From contig CAIZZE010000032.1 of the NCBI GenBank assembly GCA_903937405.1, forward strand, positions 1 through 58,102: a DNA stretch of 58,102 nucleotides. Reading direction: 5' to 3'. The first letter of the stretch is position 1. Every line of letters begins with the position of its first letter. The position numbers were made by a program, and so were the translations under genes. Below the pieces are notes generated by a model that did no database searches, was not told the DNA's origin, and worked only from the letters and a program-made list of their open reading frames with translations. Positions 45,286-56,139 of the stretch are shown here, piece by piece. The DNA comes from an uncultured Alphaproteobacteria bacterium. GTDB lineage: Bacteria; Pseudomonadota; Alphaproteobacteria; Rickettsiales; UBA1997.

Positions 45286-46224
45286 TTATTTTTCCAAAAC
45301 TTTTTTGAAATATTGAATAGTTTTTTCTAAGCCTTTTTCAAGATCAACTTTTGGAGAAAAGTTAATTAAGTTTTTTGCTTTCTCAATCACTGGTTTGCGC
45401 TGCATCGGATCGTTTTGTGGTAAATCTTTGAAAATGATTTTTGATTTTGAATTAGTCATTTGCAAAACTTTTTGGGCTAATTCCAAAATAGTAAATTCGC
45501 CGGGATTGCCTAGATTAATTGGGCCAATTTCGCTGCCCGATAAATTCATGAAATTTATAATTCCATCTACCAAATCATCGACATAGCAAAATGATCTGGT
45601 TTGATCACCCTTGCCGTAAACCGTAATATCTTCACCTTGTAGCGCTTGAACAATAAAATTTGAAACCACGCGACCATCATTTACCGACATGCGCGGGCCA
45701 TAAGTGTTGAAAATGCGTATAACTCTGATTTCGGTGCCATATTGTTTGTGATAATCATAAAACAAAGTTTCTGCAACGCGTTTGCCTTCATCGTAGCAAG
45801 ACCTCGCGCCCATTGTATTTACATTGCCGAAATATTCTTCAGATTGCGGATGAACCAAAGGATCGCCGTAAATTTCTGAAGTTGAAGCTTGAATGATTTT
45901 AGCATTTACGTTGCGCGCTAATTCCAACATATTGATTGCGCCCATGACGCAGGTTTTTGTAGTGTGAACCGGATTATGTTGGTAATGCACCGGAGAAGCC
46001 GGACAAGCGAAGTTATAGATTTCATCAACTTCTAGATGAATTGGCTGCGTAACATCGTGGCGGATTGCTTCAAAGCGCGGATTGCTCATTAAATGTTCGA
46101 TATTTTTTTTGCTACCGCAGAAATAATTGTCGAGTGAGATTACGTCATTTCCTGCCGCTAAAAGTCTTTCACATAAAAAAGAGCCAAGAAAGCCGGCGCC
46201 GCCGGTTACTAAAATTCGTTTCAT
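45286..46224 (-). CDS. uxs: UDP-glucuronate decarboxylase (UDP-xylose synthase)
   Basis: [43 protein letters not shown]. Confidence 0.93.
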
Positions 46225-47600
46225 TAAACTGGAATAAAAATTGTTACACGAAGTCCGCCAAATGGTGAGTCGGAAAGTTTTATACGGCCGCCGTGAGAAG
46301 TGATAGCGTCCATCGCAATTGCCAATCCAAGTCCGGAGCCGCCTCCAGATGTGGATTGGGCGGCTTTTTTATCGAGGTTACGAGAATTGTCAATGCGATA
46401 AAAAGGCTTAAACACATTGTTGCGCTCATTTTTAGGAATTCCCGGACCATTATCATCAATTGAAATAATCAGGTTATTATCGGAAAGAGAAGCAGTCAAA
46501 CTAACGAGGCTTCCGTAATTAAAAGCATTGTCGATCAAGTTAACCAGAGCGCGCTTCAAGGCTAGTTTTTTCACTGGTATTTCGAGATCATCTTTGAGGT
46601 TTAAAAAGCCATCAATTCGTTTATTCATTTTGTTATAATAATTGATGATTTTTTCCTGCAGGAATTTTTTGATCTCGATCAAATTGCTTTTTTCCTTATC
46701 ATCAGAGCGGGCGAAATCGAGATATTCATCTACCAACTTTTCCATATCAGAAATATCACTTTTTAAATCCTCGGTTTCTTCGGATTTTTGCATCATTTCC
46801 AATTGTAATTTCATGCGGGTTAAGGGAGTTCGCAAATCGTGAGAAACGCCGGATAACATGTCTGTTCGCTGAGTAATTTGGCGCATTACGCGCTCTTTCA
46901 TTTTAATAAAAGAAATTGCTAGCGAGCGGATTTCTTCTGAACCGTGAGGCTTGATATTTTCTACATTTTGTCCACGTCCAAATTTTTCAGCAATGTCTCG
47001 TAATTCTCGGATTGAACGAATTTGATTGCGCAAGAAAACTATCGAAATGAAGGAAGTTATGAGTGCGGTTAAAATCATCCAAAATGTAAAAACATAAGAA
47101 CTGGAACTGGTGATTTTTTTGATTGGAACATCGTAAGAAATCAAGCCTTGCTTGGTTTGAACTTTAACGATGATAAAATCATCATCATCTGGGCTTTCAA
47201 AAATTTCGTAAGGTTTTAAGCCGTGACTATCAAGTTCTGATTTCAGGCGGTTGTAAGGATCAACTAATGGATCAATATAATCGTAAATTTTATTCTGGCG
47301 CCAATTACTATCGCCAATTTTTTTCTTTTTTAAACGGCGTCTTTCCTCGAAAGAAAAATGTAAACTCACATTTTGGGAAAAATCCTGTAAAAGACTTTCA
47401 TATTCTGGTTTGTTGACTGACTTTTTGATGAAGACCATTTCTTCAACAATGTTGCGAGCCATGTGTTTACTGATTACGTCAAGATGTGTAAAATAAAAAA
47501 CGTAAATCGAAACCAGTTGCACGATCAAAATCGGCACCACGATGATCAGCAAAAATCTTCCATAAAGTGAACGGGGAATGAATTTTTTGAATCTCATCAA
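46224..47600 (-). CDS. EnvZ-like sensor histidine kinase
   Basis: PRSLYGR, two TMs, [24 protein letters not shown]. Confidence 0.9.
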
Positions 47601-47675
47601 AGAAATAAATGTTAATTTAGAAATGAAAAAATATTTTGTTTGGCAGTTCTTAAATCTCTTCTACAAATCGCAGTC

Positions 47676-48434
47676 ATGACCAGCAAAATTTCAGCAAAAA
47701 ATATCAATTTATTCTACGGCCAAAAACAAGCTTTATTTGACATTAATTTGGATTTTAAAGAACACAGTGTCACAGCTTTGATCGGGCCTTCAGGATGTGG
47801 AAAATCATCCTTCTTGCGTTGCATCAATCGCATGAATGACACTATTTTGGGTTGCAAAATCGAAGGCGAAATAACGCTCGATGGCCAAAATATTTATAAT
47901 CAAAACCTAGATCTGGTGCTGCTTCGCGCTTCTGTCGGCATGGTGTTTCAAAAGCCAAATCCTTTTCCAAAATCAATTTATGAAAATGTGGCTTACGGGC
48001 CAAGAATTCATGGTCTTTTTCAAAATAAAAAACAGCTCGATGAAATTGTTGAAAGCAGTTTGACCAAAGCTGGTTTATGGAAAGAAGTTAAAGATCGTTT
48101 GAATGATCAAGCCAGCGGACTTTCTGGTGGGCAACAACAACGTCTGTGCATTGCACGTACAATTGCAATTGAACCGGAAGTGATTTTGATGGACGAGCCT
48201 TGTTCGGCGCTTGACCCGATCGCTACCGCAAAAATTGAAGAATTAATCGATGAATTAAAAGATAATTTTACAATCATTATTGTTACACACTCAATGCAGC
48301 AAGCGGCGCGTGTTTCAAACATGACGGCGTTTTTCAACATGGGTAAAATTGTTGAATATGACACGACGGATAAAATTTTTACTAATCCGAATAATCAGCA
48401 AACGCAGGATTATATCACCGGCAGATTTGGTTAG
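47676..48434 (+). CDS. pstB: Phosphate ABC transporter ATPase
   Basis: [41 protein letters not shown]. Confidence 0.97.
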
Positions 48435-48460
48435 AACCTGTTCAATCGATTTTCATTTAA

Positions 48461-48835
48461 ATGTTTGGCTTTTCCTTCGCAGAATTAATTTTGGTTATTC
48501 TCATCGCCTTGATTTTTATCAAGCCGAAGGATTTGCCCGAAATTGCTCATTTTGTGGGGAAAATTTTTTATCGCGCAAAAAGAATGTATGGTGATTTGAA
48601 GAAGTCGCTAAAAGAAATGGAAGGTGAGTTGGGAATTGATGAATTAAAACATGAGTTAAATCGCGGAATTGCTGAAGAGAAAGCCAAGCTGGAAGAAGAA
48701 ATGACAGTGATTGTTGACATGTATGGCAATGAACATCATGTGCCGAATGTAAAAAAAGTTAGGCCTGATTTAAGTGAAGAGGAAGTTGAGTTGGAAATTA
48801 AAAAGCACAATGAAGAGAATTTAAAACTTAATTAA
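48461..48835 (+). CDS. tatB: Tat translocase subunit TatB-like
   Basis: MFGFSFAELILVILIALIFIKPKDLP N-terminus followed by an amphipathic helix. Confidence 0.8.
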   Translation: MFGFSFAELILVILIALIFIKPKDLPEIAHFVGKIFYRAKRMYGDLKKSLKEMEGELGIDELKHELNRGIAEEKAKLEEEMTVIVDMYGNEHHVPNVKKVRPDLSEEEVELEIKKHNEENLKLN

Positions 48836-48839
48836 GATT

Positions 48840-49508
48840 ATGAAAAACGACAATAACATAAAACACAAAAATAGAGTTGCCAATCACGGCGAGGTTTTCA
48901 CTTCCAAAAGAGAAGTGGAAGCAATGCTAAATTTGGTGGATCAAGAAACTGTAAGAATTGACTCAAGATTTTTAGAGCCCGCTTGTGGAGATGGAAATTT
49001 TTTGGCAAAAATCTTGGAAAGAAAGTTGGGAGTGGTTGTAAAGCAATATCAAAAAAATCAAATTGAATTTGAAAGATATGCTCTAATTGCCGCTTCTTCA
49101 ATTTATGGAATTGATATTTTAGAAGACAATGTTGATGAATGTCGCCAAAGATTATTGCTAATATTCAGCCAAGTTTATTGCTCAATTTACAAAAACCAAG
49201 TCAGCCAAGTTTATCTTGAAAATATCAAATTTGTCTTTTCAAAAAATATTCTGTGGGGCGATGCTTTGAGTTTGAAAAAAGTTGACAACAACCAACCAAT
49301 CACCTTTTGCGAATGGTCGGCGGTTAATGGCTCAATGATTAAAAGAAAAGATTATCAATTTTCAGATTTGCTTGCCTATAAAGATTTTGACGAACCAAGC
49401 CTTTTTTCTGTCGGGCTTTTTTCTGATTTAGGTGAAGAAGTTTTAATTGCTAAAGCCAAAAAGGAATATCCTTTAACTCATTTTATGGAATTAAATAAAT
49501 ATGATTGA
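48840..49508 (+). CDS. DNA methyltransferase-like protein, SAM-binding half only
   Basis: HGEVFT, FLEPACGDGNFL, IYGIDI, ILWGDAL; no (N/D/S)PP(Y/F) motif in 222 aa. Confidence 0.8.
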   Translation: MKNDNNIKHKNRVANHGEVFTSKREVEAMLNLVDQETVRIDSRFLEPACGDGNFLAKILERKLGVVVKQYQKNQIEFERYALIAASSIYGIDILEDNVDECRQRLLLIFSQVYCSIYKNQVSQVYLENIKFVFSKNILWGDALSLKKVDNNQPITFCEWSAVNGSMIKRKDYQFSDLLAYKDFDEPSLFSVGLFSDLGEEVLIAKAKKEYPLTHFMELNKYD

Positions 49509-51021
49509 TTCCAGCAATAACTATAATCCTGATGTTCTCACTTGCCTTGCCAATCTTAGTAATGACGAGGTTTTTACTCCGCCAAAATTAGCTAATCAAA
49601 TTTTAGATAATCTTCCCAAAGAAATTTGGAGTGATAAAAATATCAAATTTTTAGACCCAGTTGCAAAATCGGGAGTTTTTTTAAGAGAAATTACCAAAAG
49701 ATTAATTACTGGCTTAGAAAGCCAAATTCCTGATTTGCAAACCAGAATTAATCATATTTTAGCCAATCAAGTTTTTGGAATTGCCATTACCGAAATTACC
49801 GCTCTTATTTCAAGAAGAACGCTTTATTGTGCCAAAAAAGCCAATGGCAAATATTCAATTTCTAGCGATTTTGCTGATGAAATTGGCAATATTAAATTTG
49901 ATCAAACCAATCACAGTTGGAAAAATGACAAATGCATTTTTTGTGGCGCAGGCAAGCTGGCATATGATCGATGCGAAGAACTTGAAACCCACGCCTATCA
50001 ATTTATTCACCACAACAACCCTGAAAAAATATTTAATATGAAATTTGATGTAATTATTGGCAATCCTCCTTATCAAATGAGCGATGGCGGATTTGGCAAA
50101 AGCGCCAAACCAATTTATCACAAATTTATTGAGCAAGCTAAAAAATTAAATCCGCGATTTTTGTCAATGATCATTCCTGCAAGATGGTATAACGGTGGAA
50201 AAGGCTTAGATGAATTTAGAGATGAAATGTTAAATGATAAAAAAATTTCTAAAATTCATGATTTTCCAAATACTAGCGATTGTTTTGCGGGTTTAAATAT
50301 TAGAGGTGGAGTGTGTTATTTTCTGTGGGAAAGAGATCACAAAGGTGATTGTGAAATTATTACTCACAAACAAAACGAAATCATATCTTCAATGAAAAGA
50401 CCACTTTTAGAAAAAGGTTTTAATATCTTCATCAGATATAATGAGGCGATTCAAATTCTTCACAAAGTTCAAAAGTTTAAAGAACAATCTTTTAGCAATA
50501 TTGTGAGTGCAAGAAAACCATTTGGCTTGGCAACAAATTTTGCTGATTTTTCAAAACAAAAAACTACCAAAGATCAAATTCTGCTTTATAGATTTGGTGA
50601 TAATGGTTTTGTGGATGAAAAACAGGTTCAAAGCAATCATAGTTGGATTAAGATGTGGAAAGTAATATTGCCATATGCAAGCCCAGGCGATGATAGCTAT
50701 CCTCATTTAATTTTAAGCAAACCAATAATTTCTGCTCCCAATTCTTGCTCAACCGAAACCTATATTGTTGTAGGGCCTTTTCAAAATGAGGGCAAAAGCA
50801 AAAATGTTGCCAAATATATGCTCACTTCTTTTTTTAGATTTATGGTTTTGCTGGCAAAAAGCACTCAACACATTACCAAGAAAACATATATTTTTGCCCC
50901 AATGCAAGATTTTCAAGAAGAATGGGATGATGAAAAATTATATAAAAAATATGGCATCAATGAGGAAGAAATAAATTTTATCAATAGCTTAATTAGGCCA
51001 ATCGAGAAGCATTATGACTAA
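49501..51021 (+). CDS. Gamma-class amino-MTase (Eco57I-like) with target recognition region
   Basis: DEVFTPP, FLDPVAKSGVFL, FDVIIGNPPY, MIIPARW. Confidence 0.88.
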   Translation: MIDSSNNYNPDVLTCLANLSNDEVFTPPKLANQILDNLPKEIWSDKNIKFLDPVAKSGVFLREITKRLITGLESQIPDLQTRINHILANQVFGIAITEITALISRRTLYCAKKANGKYSISSDFADEIGNIKFDQTNHSWKNDKCIFCGAGKLAYDRCEELETHAYQFIHHNNPEKIFNMKFDVIIGNPPYQMSDGGFGKSAKPIYHKFIEQAKKLNPRFLSMIIPARWYNGGKGLDEFRDEMLNDKKISKIHDFPNTSDCFAGLNIRGGVCYFLWERDHKGDCEIITHKQNEIISSMKRPLLEKGFNIFIRYNEAIQILHKVQKFKEQSFSNIVSARKPFGLATNFADFSKQKTTKDQILLYRFGDNGFVDEKQVQSNHSWIKMWKVILPYASPGDDSYPHLILSKPIISAPNSCSTETYIVVGPFQNEGKSKNVAKYMLTSFFRFMVLLAKSTQHITKKTYIFAPMQDFQEEWDDEKLYKKYGINEEEINFINSLIRPIEKHYD

Positions 51022-53527
51022 AAACCAATTCTTCCCAAAGCGCCCCAACCCCAATCCAACGATTTATGCTTATGAATTGCCAAAAGAAGAAACCAGAAAA
51101 GGGTTGTTGAAAATTGGTTTTACAGATCGCGATGCCAAAATCAGAATTGCTGAACAGCTAAAAACCAGTGGCATTGCTTATAAAATTGTTTTTGAGAGCT
51201 GTGCTGTAAAAAATAATGGCGATTATTTTACTGATCGCGAAATTCATAAAATTTTGCGCAAAAAAGGCTTTAAAAACCCTGATGGTGAGTGGTTTGAATG
51301 CAGGCTTGAAGATTTGCAAATTGTTGTGAATGGCATCAAAAATAATCAAGAATTTGCCACAGAAAGAAGTTTGGATTTTGCGATGCGACCAGAGCAAAAA
51401 GATGCGGTGGAGCGAACTTCTCAATATTTCTTAAAGTCAAAACAAGAAAATTCAAAAAAACCGTCTCATTTTTTGTGGAATGCTAAAATGCGTTTTGGCA
51501 AAACTTTTACCACCTATCAATTAGCAAAAAAAATGGGTTGGAAAAAGATTTTGGTTTTAACCTTCAAGCCCGCAGTGCAAAACGCTTGGCAAGAAGATTT
51601 GGAAAGTCATATTGATTTTGAAAATTGGCAATTTATTGCCAAAAACAATGACTTAAAAAAAGTTGATTATTCAAAGCCGCTTGTTTGCTTTGGCTCTTTT
51701 CAAGATTATTTAGGCAAAAATTCTGCTGGCGGAATTAAGGCAAAAAATGAGTGGGTTCATTCCACCAATTGGGATTGCGTGGTTTTTGACGAATATCATT
51801 ATGGAGCTTGGCGAGAAAACGCCAAAGACCTTTTTGAATCGGAAGATTTGGAAGAACAAAGATTTGCTGAAGGTGAAGGTTTGGAATTTTTTGATGATAA
51901 AAATGGAAAAAATAATATTGATGAAGGTTTGATGCCAATAACTACCAGCCATTTTTTATATTTATCGGGAACGCCATTTAGAGCCATTTCTTCAGGAGAA
52001 TTTATTGAAGAGCAAATTTTCAATTGGACTTATAGCGATGAGCAAAGAGCTAAAGAAAACTGGCAAGGCAAAAATAACCCTTATTTGTCGCTGCCAAGAA
52101 TGGTTATTTTAACCTATCAAATGCCTGATTCTATTAAAGAAATTGCTCAAGGCGGTGAATTTAATGAATTTGATTTGAATGTTTTTTTCCAGGCAAAAGG
52201 GAAATTTGAAAATGCTAAATTTGTTTATGAAAATGAAGTGCAAAAATGGCTGGATTTGATTCGCGGATCTTTTTTAGAAACTCAAATTGATAATTTGAAA
52301 CAAGGAGCAAAAAAACCTTTAATGCCGTTTTCTGAAGCTAGATTATTAGAAATTTTAACTCACACATTTTGGTTTTTGCCCAGCGTTTCGTCTTGTTATG
52401 CGATGAAAAATATTTTGAGCAAAAGACAAAATATTTTTTATCATAATTATAAAATCATTGTTGCAGCAGGAAAAGAAGCTGGAATTGGCGCTGAAGCATT
52501 AAAGCCAGTTATTGAGGCAATGGAAAACCCGCTTCAAACCAAAACCATCACTCTTTCTTGTGGAAAATTAACCACGGGCGTTTCTGTTAAACCTTGGAGC
52601 GGAATTTTTATGCTTAGAAATTCTTCCAGCCCAGAAACCTATTTTCAAGCGGCATTTAGAGTGCAAACGCCTTGGCAGATCAAAAATCCTGATGATAAGT
52701 CGCCAAACAAAATCGAAATTATCAAAGAAGAATGTTATGTTTTTGATTTTGCACCAAATCGAGCGCTTCGCCAAATTGCGGATTACGGCTGTCGCCTGAA
52801 TATTGATGAGAATAATCCTGAAAAGAAAGTTGAGGAATTTATCAATTTTCTGCCAATTTTGGCTTATGATGGAAGCTCTACAAAGCAAATTAATGCCGCT
52901 GAAATATTAGATATCGCCTTTAGCGGAACCACGGCAACTTTGCTTGCCAGAAGATGGGAGAGTGCACTTTTGGTTAATGTTGATAATGCAACTTTGTCAA
53001 GATTGATGGCGAGTGAAAAAGCCATGAATGCGTTGATGAGCATTGAAGGTTTTAGAACTCTAAACCAAGATATTGAAACAATTATTAATAAATCTGAATC
53101 AATTAAAAAAATTAAAAAAGAAGCAAATGAAAGAGATTTGAGCCCTAAAGAAAAAAAAGAATTATCGGATGAAGAAAAAGAATTTAAATCGAAAAGAAAA
53201 CAAATTCAGGAAAAACTGATTAAATTTTCGACTAGAATTCCTGTTTTTATGTATTTGACTGATTATCGGGAAAGAAATCTTAAAGATGTTATTATGCAAC
53301 TTGAGCCACAACTTTTTAAAAAAGTAACTGGATTGAATGTTGGTGATTTTGATTTATTGGTAAGTCTTGGAGTTTTTAACGATTCCTTAATGAATGATGC
53401 GGTTTGTAAATTTAAAAAATATGAGGATAAAAGCCTTTCATATGCTGGCTTGTGGAGGCATAAAGATGAGGATATTGGGTTATTTAACACCACTATTTCA
53501 AGCCAAGAATTTATTGAGAATTTATAA
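51014..53527 (+). CDS. GIY-YIG/T5orf172-like nuclease fused to SF2 helicase
   Basis: IYAY..LKIGFT..RI..IH..GEWF N-terminal domain; NAKMRFGKT, FDEYH, LSGTP, YFQAAFRVQT. Confidence 0.85.
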   Translation: MTKNQFFPKRPNPNPTIYAYELPKEETRKGLLKIGFTDRDAKIRIAEQLKTSGIAYKIVFESCAVKNNGDYFTDREIHKILRKKGFKNPDGEWFECRLEDLQIVVNGIKNNQEFATERSLDFAMRPEQKDAVERTSQYFLKSKQENSKKPSHFLWNAKMRFGKTFTTYQLAKKMGWKKILVLTFKPAVQNAWQEDLESHIDFENWQFIAKNNDLKKVDYSKPLVCFGSFQDYLGKNSAGGIKAKNEWVHSTNWDCVVFDEYHYGAWRENAKDLFESEDLEEQRFAEGEGLEFFDDKNGKNNIDEGLMPITTSHFLYLSGTPFRAISSGEFIEEQIFNWTYSDEQRAKENWQGKNNPYLSLPRMVILTYQMPDSIKEIAQGGEFNEFDLNVFFQAKGKFENAKFVYENEVQKWLDLIRGSFLETQIDNLKQGAKKPLMPFSEARLLEILTHTFWFLPSVSSCYAMKNILSKRQNIFYHNYKIIVAAGKEAGIGAEALKPVIEAMENPLQTKTITLSCGKLTTGVSVKPWSGIFMLRNSSSPETYFQAAFRVQTPWQIKNPDDKSPNKIEIIKEECYVFDFAPNRALRQIADYGCRLNIDENNPEKKVEEFINFLPILAYDGSSTKQINAAEILDIAFSGTTATLLARRWESALLVNVDNATLSRLMASEKAMNALMSIEGFRTLNQDIETIINKSESIKKIKKEANERDLSPKEKKELSDEEKEFKSKRKQIQEKLIKFSTRIPVFMYLTDYRERNLKDVIMQLEPQLFKKVTGLNVGDFDLLVSLGVFNDSLMNDAVCKFKKYEDKSLSYAGLWRHKDEDIGLFNTTISSQEFIENL

Positions 53528-53575
53528 GAAAAAATTACGATAGATAATACAATACCAAATCCCATCTTTAATTAA

Positions 53576-54391
53576 TTAATTTAAATCGAACACCATTCCC
53601 ACCGTCACGCTGCGATTCACTAAATTTGTCGCCACATGTTTATCATCTTCCTCATATCTTCTTTTTTCAAAAGTATGGCGTAACTCTAAAGACATACGAT
53701 CACTAATTCGATAAACCAAGCTACTCTTCAATTCATTATCCATACTTTCATGATCAAGAAACCAATAGCCGCGTTGGGTTAGAGTCAGATTTTTTGTAAT
53801 CTTGAAATTGGTTCTAATTGATGGAATTATATCAATTTCATGTCCATAAGTTTTTATATCGTGATAGCCGATGCTAATGTCAAACTCGAGTTTCTCTTTA
53901 AAAAACATCCGTCCCAAACCAATAGCGGTATGTAAATCATAATAAAATTTGGAAAGATCGTCATACATTGTGCGGTGAAAAAACACGCCGTAATTTTCGC
54001 TGTCTTTGATTCGCACTTTGCTGGAAAGAGAAAGGTCATAAAGCTCGGATTTTTTCACATCATAACGTTTATTTTTTGCGCTGCCGCTATCGCTATATTT
54101 ATTCTCATTTTGGAAGTTTATCTCATGAATATAATTGCTGCTTTGGTAAAGATAACGCGCGTTTAAATCGTAGCTTTTGGAATTGTAATCCGATGAATAA
54201 TTGCCACCAAAAGATAAATATTTTTTAGCGCTGCTGGTTTTATAAAGGCGTTTTGATCTAGGCGACACAACCGCTTCACGATTGGCTTCAGAGTCAACAG
54301 CAAAAGCTTCTTCTGGAAGTTGTAGGGAAACGAAGGAAAGGAAAAAAATAGTGAAAGCGTGGTGACGCATATAGGTTTTCGGGTTTAACAC
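53576..54391 (-). CDS. DUF481-like outer membrane beta-barrel protein
   Basis: Signal peptide, alternating aromatic strands, C-terminal VGMVFDLN. Confidence 0.6.
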   Translation of the reverse strand: MLNPKTYMRHHAFTIFFLSFVSLQLPEEAFAVDSEANREAVVSPRSKRLYKTSSAKKYLSFGGNYSSDYNSKSYDLNARYLYQSSNYIHEINFQNENKYSDSGSAKNKRYDVKKSELYDLSLSSKVRIKDSENYGVFFHRTMYDDLSKFYYDLHTAIGLGRMFFKEKLEFDISIGYHDIKTYGHEIDIIPSIRTNFKITKNLTLTQRGYWFLDHESMDNELKSSLVYRISDRMSLELRHTFEKRRYEEDDKHVATNLVNRSVTVGMVFDLN

Positions 54392-54424
54392 TTACTTTTA
54401 GCAAACGTGTGTGAATTGCGCTAA

Positions 54425-54454
54425 CTTCGCTTGAGGTTTTAAACTCAAGCGAAG
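54425..54454. terminator. Intergenic hairpin
   Basis: CTTCGCTTGAG-n8-CTCAAGCGAAG, just downstream of 54464..54763. Confidence 0.55.
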
Positions 54455-54463
54455 GCTTTTATA

Positions 54464-54763
54464 TTACTGCTTAAGTGGCGCGTTTGGTGTTGGGTGTTGT
54501 GGGTTAGTATCAAGGTTATCCATTGGCGCTGCATCTTGTGGAGTGGCTGCTTGAGAAGCTTCTAAGTTTTCGCCACTTTCATCAAGAGTAACGCTATTTT
54601 CGTTAATATTTTCGTTAGATAAATCTGGTAATTCTACTTCTTCTTCTTTTGCTTCAAAAAGCCAGCTTGCGTGGCTTTTAACTGAATCTGAATATTTTAC
54701 GCCGGCAAAAAATGAGAAAATTAACAAAGTTAAAACTACAATTAATTCGATTGTTTTGACCAT
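54464..54763 (-). CDS. Hypothetical membrane-anchored protein with acidic disordered tail
   Basis: N-terminal TM followed by E/N/P-rich low complexity. Confidence 0.65.
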   Translation of the reverse strand: MVKTIELIVVLTLLIFSFFAGVKYSDSVKSHASWLFEAKEEEVELPDLSNENINENSVTLDESGENLEASQAATPQDAAPMDNLDTNPQHPTPNAPLKQ

Positions 54764-54882
54764 AAGTTTATTTTTTTAATAAGTTGTTTTGCCTAGAGCG
54801 GTGCAGCTTGGCGCTGTTTAGTTTTTTTTAAGAACTGTGGGAAAATAAATTGCACTTATTTCTAAAGCAATGAGTTTTTTTC

Positions 54883-56139
54883 TTAAACCACCATCAAAAT
54901 CGGATGCTCAATATAACGACGCAATGCTTTCAAAAATTCTGCACCCACAGAACCATCAACGGAGCGATGATCTGAAGATAAAGTTACATTCATCATGGAA
55001 GCGATTTTAATTTGACCATGATCAACGATTGGTTTGTCAACCGCGCGTGCAACAGCTAGAATACAGCTTTGTGGTGGGTTTACAATTGCTGAGAAATTAT
55101 CAATTCCAAACATTCCTAAATTAGAAATGCTAAAAGAACCGCCTTGGAATTCTTCCGGTTGCAATTTGCCATCACGGGCTTTTTTAGCCAATTGTTTGGT
55201 TTCAGTTGAAATTGTCTGAATAGTTTTTTGATCAGCGTTTTTGATGATTGGAGTAATCAAGCCGCCATCAATTGCCACGGCCATTGAGATGTCGATATTA
55301 TTGTAAATTAAAACTGCATCATCAGTCCAAGAAGAATTGGCTTCCGGAACTTTTTTCAAAGACATTGCGACTGCTTTAATAATCAAATCATTGACTGAAA
55401 TTTTGTAAGCTGGATTGCCGTTTTCATCGTGAGGCGCAACTTCATTTAAAGCTGAACGCAGCTCTTGAAGCTTGCTGATATTGAATTCACAAGAAAGATA
55501 AAAATGTGGAACTGTTTGTTTCGATTCCAAAAGTCTTTTAGCAATAACTTTGCGCATGTTGTTATTTTTAACTGCGTAGGTTTCTTGCGGATTGCGGCGA
55601 ACCACACCTTTAGCGGCTCCACCGCTATTGATGAATCCTAAAACATCTTCTTTAATAATTCTGCCGTGAGGGCCGGAACCATTGATTTGAGATAGTGTAA
55701 CGCCTTCATCTTTAGCGATTCTTTTTGCAAGCGGACTAGCTTTTACATGAGATGAAAAGCTTGCAGATGATTGATTTTGTTGAGCCGCTGGCGCATTAGC
55801 TACAGTTTTTTCTTCTTTTTTCTCTTCTGCTTTCGGAGCTGCGACCGCGGTTGGAGCAGCTTTTGAGGCATAATTTTCTAAAGCTTTTTTATCTTCGCCA
55901 TCTTCTAAAATTAATGCGATGCATGAATTTACAGCAACATTTTCAGTGCCTTCATTGACTAGAATTTTTCCTAAAATTCCTTCATCAACTGCTTCAACTT
56001 CCATAGTTGCTTTATCGGTTTCGATCTCTGCAATTACTTCGCCGGCTTTGATTTTATCGCCTTCTTTTTTTACCCATTTTGCAAGATTTCCCTCTTTCAT
56101 TGTTGGAGAAAGAGCAGGCATGAGAATTTCAATTGGCAT
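54883..56139 (-). CDS. pdhC: Pyruvate dehydrogenase E2 dihydrolipoamide acetyltransferase
   Basis: [13 protein letters not shown] lipoyl site, ASPLAKR, DHRSVDG. Confidence 0.96.

What the first reader, a model, noticed from the sequence alone, without database searches (positions are those of the whole stretch)
48840..53527. Three-gene MTase-half / MTase / nuclease-helicase cassette: candidate uncharacterised defence system
Seen: three co-oriented genes, each overlapping the next by 8 bp. They encode a 222-aa MTase-like protein, a 506-aa NPPY MTase, and an 837-aa GIY-YIG/T5orf172-like nuclease fused N-terminally to an SF2 helicase. The helicase has an atypical Walker A (NAKMRFGKT), an atypical motif VI (QAAFRVQT rather than QxxGRxxR) and a charged coiled coil near the C-terminus. 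Knowledge: Type I systems need HsdS and use PD-(D/E)xK nucleases, Type III systems use a beta-class Mod, Type ISP is one polypeptide, and Bacillus yeeABC has separate helicase and nuclease genes. Inference: this layout fits none of them and may be a distinct ATP-dependent restriction-modification class.
Basis: partly seen in the sequence, partly recalled or inferred. Interest (0 to 1): 0.82.

Follow-up and report, generated by a model that had tools for sequence, protein, structure and literature searches.

The report
DrdVI-type restriction-modification gene cassette
These three genes are a member of a restriction-modification family already listed in REBASE (the DrdVI type: a two-part DNA methylase plus a nuclease fused to a DNA motor), so it is a real, mobile defence cassette but not a new class.

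Summary
Three co-oriented ORFs (48840-49508, 49501-51021, 51014-53527) overlap by 8 bp each and encode a 222-aa methylase N-half (M1), a 506-aa NPPY/Eco57I-type methylase with its recognition domain (M2), and an 837-aa GIY-YIG/T5orf172 nuclease fused to an SF2 ATPase (R).

The cassette is not uncharacterised. All three proteins are full-length homologues (41/47/54 % identity) of the three genes on Deinococcus wulumuqiensis plasmid pDrdVI. REBASE lists these as M1-2.DrdVI (GCAGCC, m6A, "IIG"), shown by cloning the methylase genes in E. coli. [quoted passage not shown]

Linkage is strong: 58 of 61 informative metagenome loci keep M1-M2-R. Fused relatives (nuclease-helicase-methylase in one chain, plus M1) have the Type ISP domain order. 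In 12 of 24 congeners the flanks are adjacent without the cassette, so it is a mobile insertion.

Most likely mechanism (inferred): M1+M2 methylate one strand of a short asymmetric site, and R, docked to M2, translocates with ATP and cuts unmodified DNA.

Still open: how M1 and M2's degenerate N-half share AdoMet binding, the recognition site, and the cleavage rule. Structure tools were off. Verdict: new member of a known kind.

The parts
48840..49508 (+). M1: 222-aa methylase N-half (motifs X, I, II, III; no catalytic motif IV). Homologue of M1.DrdVI.
   Evidence: 41 % identity to the pDrdVI M1 over 214 aa. Motif I EPACGxGNF in 87-88 of 89 diverse homologues, acidic motif II in 87 of 89, G[D/N] motif III in 87 of 89. 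NPPY-like motif in 0 of 121.
48975..49001 (+). M1 motif I (EPACGDGNF), the canonical AdoMet-binding loop
49501..51021 (+). M2: 506-aa Eco57I-type gamma N6-adenine methylase with a C-terminal recognition domain. Homologue of M2.DrdVI.
   Evidence: Pfam Eco57I E 1.6e-40. PADLOC PDLC03375 at 3.7e-68 and PDLC03626 positions 862-1355. 47 % identity to the pDrdVI M2 over 528 aa.
49501..50025 (+). M2N: degenerate paralogue of the M1 half. It has motif X', I' (DPVAKSGVFL) and II' (FGIAITE), a C-H-C-C putative zinc site (C110, H138, C145, C148), and AYQFIH 18 residues before NPPY.
   Evidence: hhalign aligns M1 15-96 to M2 20-99 with probability 95.9 %. K56 in 79 of 80; position 95 is A/G/S in 80 of 80; the four putative zinc ligands in 75-76 of 80. 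Coordinates.
50047..50076 (+). M2 motif IV (DVIIGNPPYQ), the catalytic loop
   Evidence: NPPY in 120 of 120 homologues
50356..50895 (+). Most variable part of M2 (residues 286-465): the putative target-recognition domain
   Evidence: Lowest conservation among 65 M2 sequences, and 37-41 % identity to DrdVI here against 54-62 % elsewhere. One contig of an independent lake/freshwater run has other sequence from 50248 to 51018, between near-identical M1/M2N and R.
51014..53527 (+). R: 837-aa GIY-YIG/T5orf172 nuclease + SF2 ATPase/translocase + C-terminal domain. Homologue of the DrdVI restriction gene.
   Evidence: PADLOC PDLC03626 positions 146-801. 54 % identity to the pDrdVI R over 846 aa.
51056..51337 (+). 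GIY-YIG/T5orf172 nuclease domain (TIYAYEL, LKIGFT, R44, GEWFE)
   Evidence: Pfam T5orf172 and MUG113. K33, G35, R44, D74, E92 and W93 are invariant; Y18, Y20 and T37 are >=90 % conserved in 36 diverse sequences.
51371..52993 (+). SF2 helicase-like motor: motif I FLWNAKMRFGKT (51470-51505), motif II DEYH (51788-51799), motif III LSGTPF (51962-51979), motif VI YFQAAFRVQTPW (52640-52675)
   Evidence: Pfam ResIII; invariant columns; coordinates
52994..53524 (+). R C-terminal domain with a charged helical stretch (53081-53224). In fused relatives its weak counterpart lies directly before M2N.
48830..53527 (.). Approximate limits of the inserted unit
   Evidence: Homology to cassette-free congeners stops near 48783-48789 on the left and resumes at about 53583 on the right. 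Contigs in two independent runs carry other sequence before 48830. G003:C5 is 100 % identical only up to the last bases of R, about 53525, and differs after that.

Best explanation
This is an intact, horizontally acquired member of the DrdVI family of restriction-modification systems, which REBASE files as Type IIG(-like). Shown by homology: M1 and M2 correspond to the methylase gene pair M1-2.DrdVI, which the NEB paper matched to m6A at GCAGCC by cloning and expression in E. coli, and R corresponds to the GIY-YIG-translocase restriction protein.

Inferred mechanism:
1. M1, M2 and R form one enzyme. Natural fusions join R to M2 and M1 to M2's C-half.
2. The recognition domain at the C-terminus of M2 reads a short asymmetric site. 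M2's NPPY loop methylates one adenine on one strand. The AdoMet pocket is supplied, at least in part, by M1, which keeps the canonical AdoMet-binding residues that M2's own N-half has lost.
3. On an unmodified site, R burns ATP to move along DNA. Its GIY-YIG domain then cuts away from the site, probably when two enzymes meet, as Type ISP enzymes do. A system that marks only one strand needs such long-range sensing of site orientation.

The domain order in the fused relatives (nuclease-motor-coupler-methylase-recognition domain) is that of Type ISP enzymes. Two things differ: the nuclease is GIY-YIG instead of Mrr, and there is an extra M1 subunit.
For: Family membership: full-length homology of all three proteins to the pDrdVI genes in the same order. 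M1-2.DrdVI is listed as GCAGCC, m6A, cloned in E. coli (PMC6430315). DrdVI is described as a 'fused translocase and REase' with GIY-YIG (PMC4996451). The 'split methylase/RM' family includes MaeIV, GCACY (PMC10113651).

Linkage: 58 of 80 metagenome loci are M1-M2-R colinear, 19 are cut by a contig end and 3 are exceptions. 8 of 9 plasmid loci keep all three parts. Both genome loci found with M1 (L007, L008) have M2 and R. All 4 assessable loci of the phylum sample do. One phage record does.

One enzyme: R-M2 fusions of 1422-1493 aa (stop-to-stop ORFs) in L004, L010 and L028; an R-M2N fusion plus a separate M2C in L009; M1-M2C fusions without M2N in 3 of 150 representative clusters. The 8-bp overlaps suggest coupled translation.

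Active sites are conserved: GIY-YIG residues and SF2 motifs I, II, III and VI, NPPY in 120 of 120, M1 AdoMet motifs.

One-strand marking: GCAGCC has no adenine on its complement (read directly from the motif).

Mobility, as expected of RM systems: the cassette is missing from 12 of 24 congeners whose flanks are adjacent. It was found in 6 of 400 other genomes of the phylum. An allele with a replaced M2 C-half exists in another sample.
Against: No methylation or restriction data exist for this locus. I saw no published cleavage data for any member, so translocation, collision and distant cutting are inferred from domains only.

REBASE files the family as IIG, a label that classically implies cutting at a fixed distance.

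M2 has the canonical spacing (18-20 residues) between a motif-III-like AY[E/Q]F and NPPY, with E at that position in 58 of 80 sequences. M2 may therefore fold as a complete methylase by itself, and M1's role may be different.

The papers I read say M1 and M2 were cloned together. They do not say that either alone is inactive.

No solved relative supports the fold assignments: the best PDB E-values are 0.016-0.2.

Expression evidence is weak. Only short contigs from two RNA libraries match, and these may be DNA carry-over.
Confidence: 0.82

Rival explanations
1. M2 is a complete, self-sufficient methylase. M1 is not its missing half but a non-catalytic AdoMet-binding accessory, for example a cofactor sensor or an assembly or licensing subunit for R.
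For: M2 carries its own motifs X', I' and II', and a motif-III-like AY[E/Q]F at the canonical distance from NPPY. M2N is strongly conserved, with 0.67-0.92 column conservation over residues 16-120. In fused relatives M2N-M2C sits where the complete methylase sits in Type ISP enzymes (PMC3874165 passage).
Against: M2N lacks the acidic motif II residue in 80 of 80 sequences and has K in place of the first glycine of motif I in 79 of 80, while M1 keeps both canonical features. M1-M2C fusions that lack M2N exist in 3 of 150 clusters. NEB names the pair a split methylase. M1 travels with M2 in 58 of 61 informative loci.
Confidence: 0.3
2. It is a classical Type IIG-like enzyme, as the REBASE label suggests. 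It cuts at a fixed short distance from its site, and the ATPase serves only as a clamp or switch, not as a long-range translocase.
For: The system is filed as 'IIG' in PMC6430315. The best PADLOC model is named REase_MTase_IIG. ATP-dependent enzymes that cut near their site exist, e.g. CglI (title and abstract of PMC5737866 in the listing).
Against: The full SF2 motor motifs are invariant. PMC4996451 itself calls the protein a translocase. One-strand marking of GCAGCC calls for sensing of site orientation (plus Type ISP/III knowledge from the passages).
Confidence: 0.12
3. It is not a defence system. It could be an epigenetic or addiction module of mobile elements, or a repair helicase-nuclease that merely travels with a methylase.
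For: It is carried on plasmids and a temperate phage. In this genome it sits among housekeeping genes rather than in a defence island.
Against: The nuclease, motor and methylase-with-recognition-domain are tightly linked, and in some relatives fused. The recognition domain is variable and an allele with a replaced one exists. Distribution is sporadic. Plasmid neighbours include toxin-antitoxin, DUF262, TIR and AbiEii genes.
Confidence: 0.05

Closest known systems
DrdVI (REBASE; Deinococcus wulumuqiensis NEB 479, plasmid pDrdVI): M1.DrdVI, M2.DrdVI and the DrdVI restriction protein
   Same: The same three genes in the same order. Identity is 41/47/54 % over essentially full length. It shares the GIY-YIG + translocase R protein and the split M1/M2 methylase.
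   Different: The recognition-domain region is only 37-41 % identical, so the GCAGCC specificity cannot be transferred. In DrdVI M1 and M2 are 8 bp apart, while M2 and R overlap by 8 bp as here (annotated coordinates).
MaeIV (Methanococcus aeolicus PL15/Hp): M1-M2.MaeIV, GCACY m6A
   Same: Its authors state that it belongs to the same 'split methylase/RM' family as DrdVI. M1+M2 were cloned together and gave m6A (PMC10113651 passages).
   Different: It is archaeal. I had no MaeIV sequence, so homology to the window was not tested here.
Type ISP enzymes LlaGI / LlaBIII
   Same: The domain order nuclease - SF2 motor - gamma methylase - recognition domain is the order seen in the fused relatives of this family. 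Type ISP enzymes recognise asymmetric sites and translocate with ATP (PMC3874165 passage); one-strand methylation of Type ISP enzymes is my recollection, not from a passage I read.
   Different: Type ISP is a single polypeptide with an Mrr/PD-QxK nuclease. Here there are three genes, a GIY-YIG nuclease and an extra M1 subunit. There was no sequence-level match to solved Type ISP structures at E <= 1.
OspHL35III-type 'Type IIG-like' systems (methylase + translocase + GIY-YIG endonuclease on three proteins; Blow et al. 2016). My recollection is that Bacillus YeeABC is of this kind.
   Same: It combines a methylase carrying the only recognition domain, a translocase and a GIY-YIG nuclease (PMC4752239 legend passage).
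   Different: There the methylase is MmeI-like and unsplit, and the nuclease and translocase are separate proteins. Here the nuclease and motor are fused and the Eco57I-type methylase comes in two genes.
Type III (EcoP15I-like) systems
   Same: An asymmetric site, one-strand methylation and an SF2 ATPase fused to a nuclease in Res (partly from the passage, partly general knowledge).
   Different: Type III Mod is beta-class and Res carries a PD-(D/E)xK nuclease at its C-terminus (general knowledge). Here the motif order is gamma (X-I-II-III-IV) and the nuclease is an N-terminal GIY-YIG.

Membership tests
DrdVI family (REBASE 'split methylase/RM', filed as Type IIG-like) | Homologues of all three proteins (M1, M2, R) | tested here: met
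   blastp against the pDrdVI genes: M1 40.7 % over 214 aa (1e-49), M2 46.8 % over 528 aa, R 54.0 % over 846 aa
DrdVI family (REBASE 'split methylase/RM', filed as Type IIG-like) | Adjacent, co-oriented genes in the order M1-M2-R | tested here: met
   58 of 61 informative metagenome loci
DrdVI family (REBASE 'split methylase/RM', filed as Type IIG-like) | R is a GIY-YIG nuclease fused to a translocase | tested here: met
   Pfam T5orf172 + ResIII; conserved catalytic and motor motifs; description in PMC4996451
DrdVI family (REBASE 'split methylase/RM', filed as Type IIG-like) | M1+M2 together give m6A at a short asymmetric site | not testable with these tools
   Shown only for DrdVI (GCAGCC) and MaeIV (GCACY) by cloning. 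There are no methylome data for this organism.
DrdVI family (REBASE 'split methylase/RM', filed as Type IIG-like) | Restriction of unmodified DNA | not testable with these tools
   I found no cleavage data for any member in the papers read
Type ISP | Single polypeptide | tested here: not met
   Three ORFs. Fused R-M2 relatives exist, but with a separate M1.
Type ISP | Mrr-like PD-(Q/E)xK nuclease at the N-terminus | tested here: not met
   The N-terminal domain is T5orf172/GIY-YIG
Type ISP | Cleavage by collision of two translocating enzymes from head-to-head sites | not testable with these tools
   Needs biochemistry
Type IIG (strict sense) | Nuclease and methylase in one chain, cutting at a fixed distance, no NTP-driven motor | tested here: not met
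   The genes are separate and carry a conserved SF2 ATPase. Only the 'single recognition domain for the whole system' criterion of Blow et al. fits.
Type I | Separate HsdS subunit and a PD-(D/E)xK HsdR | tested here: not met
   There is no third specificity gene in the cassette. The variable domain lies inside M2. The nuclease is GIY-YIG. NCBIfam gave no Hsd match.
Type III | Beta-class Mod (motif IV before motif I) | tested here: not met
   Motif order is X-I-II-III in M1 and X'-I'-II'-IV in M2
BREX / DISARM | PglZ/BrxC, or DrmA/B with DUF1998, beside the methylase | tested here: not met
   There were only weak partial PglX hits to the methylase motifs. No such genes lie in or next to the cassette.

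The most novel reading that the evidence does not exclude
The methylase may be a three-module machine. M1 would supply the working AdoMet-binding half in trans to M2's NPPY/recognition half. M2's own N-half would be a degenerate, zinc-bearing pseudo-half that has been recruited as the coupler holding the GIY-YIG translocase. In fused relatives this pseudo-half lies directly after the R C-terminal domain, and it is absent from the M1-M2C fusions. If so, the DrdVI family would be a Type ISP-like collision enzyme built on a different nuclease, in which one AdoMet-loaded small subunit licenses both methylation and restriction. It would also be one of the largest RM families with no structure or published mechanism.
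Probability: 0.35. Interest if true: 0.55.

Novelty: new member of a known kind. Interest (0 to 1): 0.3.

Why it matters
For the scan, this candidate 'new defence class' is a catalogued RM family and should be scored down. For the field, the family is very large. It occurs in many phyla, on plasmids and on a phage. Yet I found no solved structure and no published cleavage mechanism. The modular split (M1 | M2N | M2C | R), the natural fusions and the M2 C-half allele swap seen here give concrete, testable hypotheses for how a split methylase is coupled to a translocating GIY-YIG nuclease.

Tried and rejected
The question of which half binds AdoMet therefore rests on sequence only.

The ESM Atlas search with M1 found only its own kind of ~200-230-aa 'MmeI-like methylase domain' clusters and holds no model.

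PDB sequence and profile searches gave nothing significant. For M2 the best hit was a BREX PglX chain at E 0.016, over motifs X-II only. For M1 the best hits were HsdM, MmeI and BseCI N-halves at E 0.03-0.15. For R nothing scored below E 0.17.

NCBIfam gave no hit above any cut-off.

The promoter and terminator scan was at background: 26 promoter-like sites against 23 expected, and 4 terminator-like sites against 5 expected.

No terminal direct or inverted repeats beyond chance-like short matches were seen at the cassette ends.

The genome-contig scan with M1 alone returned only 2 loci, because single-protein patterns are narrow.

My regex count for helicase motif VI matched unrelated earlier stretches and is not used. 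One search is used instead.

'M1-2.Ble401ORFSP' in PMC5920184 is a predicted GCATGC methylase. I could not tell whether it is of this family, so it is not used.

RNA-library contigs (X19: four pieces of 172-280 nt on M2/R; X20: two pieces of 151 and 211 nt on R) may be DNA carry-over. They are not counted as proof of transcription.

Absence of cover in parts of the RNA runs is not evidence of anything.

REBASE, DefenseFinder and the papers' supplements (e.g. S3 Table and S4 Fig of PMC4752239) could not be consulted. They may list this family explicitly.

Literature searches that found no mechanistic paper on the family are.


Full report
OBSERVATION. Both junctions overlap by 8 bp (ATGATTGA and ATGACTAA).

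Pfam gives Eco57I for M2 (E 1.6e-40). For R it gives T5orf172 (residues 17-108, E 4e-9), MUG113 and ResIII (122-273). For M1 there is only a sub-threshold MmeI_Mtase match.

M1 has gamma-class motifs X, I (EPACGDGNF), II (IYGIDI) and III (WGDAL) and no motif IV. M2 has NPPY at residues 188-191. R has FLWNAKMRFGKT, DEYH, LSGTPF and YFQAAFRVQTPW.

The 'atypical' motor motifs are hallmarks of the family. AKMRFGKT occurs in 118 of 120 and DEYH in 120 of 120 close homologues. The motif I, II, III and VI residues are invariant in 36 diverse sequences of 34-100 % identity. The GIY-YIG core is conserved too: Y18, K33, G35, R44, E92, W93.

Only the 'coiled coil' was not tested with a dedicated predictor.

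WHAT IT IS. A tblastn search of plasmids with R found 81 records, 14 of them with near-full-length matches. One is plasmid pDrdVI of Deinococcus wulumuqiensis NEB 479. It carries the same three genes in the same order, with 41, 47 and 54 % identity to M1, M2 and R over essentially their whole lengths.

The genome announcement for that strain (PMC6430315, whole text read) lists for pDrdVI 'M1-2.DrdVI, GCAGCC, 6mA, IIG'. [quoted passage not shown]

Two further NEB papers name the family:
- PMC4996451 (passage) speaks of a 'Type IIG R-M system ... [quoted passage not shown] PADLOC's REBASE-derived model PDLC03626 (REase_MTase_IIG, 1359 positions) is matched by R over positions 146-801 and by M2 over 862-1355. 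This shows that a fused form is catalogued too.

The cassette is therefore a member of a known, REBASE-listed family. What I did not find in print is any cleavage mechanism for it (literature searches).

LINKAGE AND ARCHITECTURE VARIANTS. I built HMMs for M1, M2N (M2 residues 1-172), M2C (176-506) and three parts of R. I used them to annotate every fetched locus.

Counts of loci that keep the three parts:
- 80 metagenome loci were found with an M1-M2C fusion protein as query. 58 are M1-M2-R colinear. 19 end at a contig edge within 300 nt. 3 are exceptions: L038, L101 and L108.
- Of 9 plasmid loci examined, 8 keep all three parts. In L001 (Corynebacterium) the R gene is separated from M1/M2 by a Tn3/IS insertion with aph genes.
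- Both genome loci found with M1 (L007, L008) have M2 and R.
- All 4 assessable loci of a 400-genome phylum sample do too.
- A temperate-phage record from human faeces carries all three.

Variants seen:
- In Enterococcus and relatives, M1 is followed by one ~1450-aa chain: GIY-YIG-motor-M2N-M2C (L004).
- In Companilactobacillus, the fused chain comes first and M1 follows it (L010).
- In Arthrobacter, the order is M1, then a 1098-aa R-M2N protein, then a separate 346-aa M2C starting at NPPY (L009).

In the fused chains a weak match to R's C-terminal domain lies directly before M2N (domain E 5.7e-7 to 9e-3). These 'Rosetta-stone' fusions argue that R, M2 and M1 act as one enzyme. They also show that its linear logic is that of Type ISP enzymes: nuclease-motor-coupler-methylase-recognition domain (PMC3874165 passage).

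THE SPLIT METHYLASE. M1 residues 15-96 align to M2 residues 20-99 (hhalign probability 95.9 %). So M2 carries its own, diverged copy of the N-half.

Across about 80-90 diverse sequences:
- M1 keeps motif I EPACGxGNF (87-88 of 89), an acidic motif II residue (87 of 89) and G[D/N] in motif III (87 of 89).
- M1 never has an NPPY-like motif (0 of 121).
- M2 always has NPPY (120 of 120).
- M2's motif I reads DPxxK[S/T]GxF (K in 79 of 80).
- M2's motif II position is A/G/S in 80 of 80.
- M2 has a C-H-C-C set, a putative zinc site, inserted after motif II (75-76 of 80).

A phmmer search of 1.84 billion representatives with M1 found 3232 proteins at E <= 0.001 and 335 at E <= 1e-30. Of the best 150, 143 are stand-alone M1. 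Three (P0439, P0451, P0483) are full M1-M2C fusions with no M2N, and P0448 is a fourth, shorter M1-M2C remnant.

This favours the reading that M1 is the working AdoMet-binding half for M2's catalytic and recognition half.

Against it, M2 has a motif-III-like AY[E/Q]F at the canonical 18-20 residues before NPPY (E in 58 of 80; Q in the window). M2 may therefore fold as a whole methylase domain on its own. The papers I read state only that M1 and M2 were cloned together. I put about 0.65 on trans-complementation. Structure prediction, which could have tested it, was switched off.

MECHANISM (INFERRED). GCAGCC has no adenine on its complementary strand (read from the motif), so DrdVI can mark only one strand. 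Systems of that kind are Type III and Type ISP, which use one-dimensional communication between sites (passages), and, from my recollection rather than a passage read here, MmeI-like enzymes.

With an invariant SF2 motor and GIY-YIG core in R, the most likely working is as follows. M2's C-terminal domain recognises a short asymmetric site. M1+M2 methylate it. On unmodified sites R translocates with ATP and cuts at a distance, probably on collision. None of these steps has been shown for this locus.

The recognition site cannot be predicted. M2 residues 286-465 are the most variable part of the family and are only 37-41 % identical to DrdVI.

GENOMIC SETTING. The window is one contig of a 1.66-Mb, 98.6 %-complete genome. 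The neighbours are housekeeping genes:
- upstream, a histidine kinase, pstB and a weak TatA/B-like ORF;
- downstream, two conserved ORFs, a 2-oxoacid dehydrogenase E2 and a peptide permease.

A DNA search of 24 same-genus genomes with window 46224-56139 found both flanks in many of them, but cassette sequence in only one. Reading the coordinates in that table:
- In 12 of 24 (G002, G003, G004, G006, G011, G012, G014, G016, G017, G019, G023, G024) the end of the Tat-like gene and the downstream ORF lie about 20-760 bp apart on one contig, with no cassette.
- In the other 12 the flanks are on different contigs, far apart, or not all found.

Homology stops near 48783-48789 and resumes at about 53583.

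G003 has an empty site. It also has, at the start of another contig, the last 1353 bases of R at 100 % identity, followed by unrelated sequence right after the end of R.

In two independent lake/freshwater runs, contigs join other sequence to the cassette exactly at 48830.

With R as query, matches were found in 1 of 40 relatives and in 6 of 400 other genomes of the phylum. GC content is slightly lower in the cassette (0.32-0.36) than around it (0.36-0.41). No integrase or terminal repeats were seen.

The three genes thus move as a bare unit. Here they are a solitary insertion, not part of a defence island. On plasmids their neighbours include RelE/HigA, YafQ/RelB, DUF262, TIR and AbiEii genes.

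POPULATION VARIATION. In run X5, one contig matches M1 and M2 as far as the NPPY motif (48400-50076) with 2 differences. Another contig, of 5059 nt, matches R and the right flank with 25 differences in 2682 nt. Between 50248 and 51018 that second contig has 762 other letters in place of the window's 771, and it shows 30 differences in the 201 nt before that.

So there is an allele with a replaced M2 C-half, from about NPPY to the end of M2. The breakpoint coincides with the module boundary seen in the Arthrobacter split and in the M1-M2C fusions. Exchange of the specificity module is typical RM behaviour.

VERDICT. The feature is real, intact and mobile. Its anatomy was read correctly. Its classification as an uncharacterised new class is not upheld: it is a new member of the DrdVI 'split methylase + GIY-YIG translocase' family that REBASE files as Type IIG-like. 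The modification activity has been demonstrated for two relatives.

Remaining interest lies in the unpublished restriction mechanism, the role of M1 against M2's pseudo-half, and the absence of any structure. Interest 0.3.

Noticed in passing
window 50047-51018 (M2 from NPPY to its end): In an independent freshwater run (X5), one contig has near-identical R (25 differences in 2682 nt) but carries 762 other letters in place of 50248-51018, and shows 30 differences in 50047-50247. This is an allele with a swapped M2 catalytic/recognition half. Contigs with the window's version are also present in that run.
   Followed up: partly
window 48830; G003:C5 (L030) 1-1353: The cassette also occurs in other contexts. 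Loose ends in runs X5 and X6 join different upstream sequence exactly at 48830. A congener has the 3' end of R at 100 % identity followed by unrelated DNA, while also holding an empty site on another contig.
   Followed up: partly
window 48461-48835: The upstream 124-aa ORF (weak TatA/B-like match, E 0.019) is conserved in congeners, but its last codons differ at the insertion junction. M1's ATG follows its stop codon by 4 nt, so the insertion seems to have replaced the end of this gene.
   Followed up: partly
L001 (Corynebacterium crudilactis plasmid pCRULAC2): R is intact but is separated from the M1/M2 region by about 8 kb holding Tn3-family and IS3-like transposases and aph(3'')-Ib / aph(6)-Id. 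R is therefore no longer adjacent to its methylase genes; whether M2 is still intact there was not checked. Described only.
   Followed up: no
G328:C3 (L027 and L028): One genome carries both a three-gene cassette and, about 20 kb away, a fused 1422-aa R-M2 gene. No M1 was detected for the fused gene within the 10 kb fetched.
   Followed up: no
L084, L085, L086: Two tandem M1-like ORFs precede M2 in these metagenome loci.
   Followed up: no
Many loci, e.g. L044, L048, L071, L074, L115: Many R homologues run on for 100-250 residues beyond the window's C-terminus. Their stop-to-stop ORFs are 960-1106 aa, and the phage copy is annotated at 974 aa. The extension was not examined.
   Followed up: no
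L115 (phage NatCom_35866, human faeces): A phage record with an excisionase gene carries M1-M2-R, with 62 % identity in R.
   Followed up: partly
window 50581-53340: Short contigs from two metatranscriptome libraries (X19, X20) match parts of M2 and R at 95-100 % identity. This is a weak hint of expression at most, because DNA carry-over is not excluded.
   Followed up: partly
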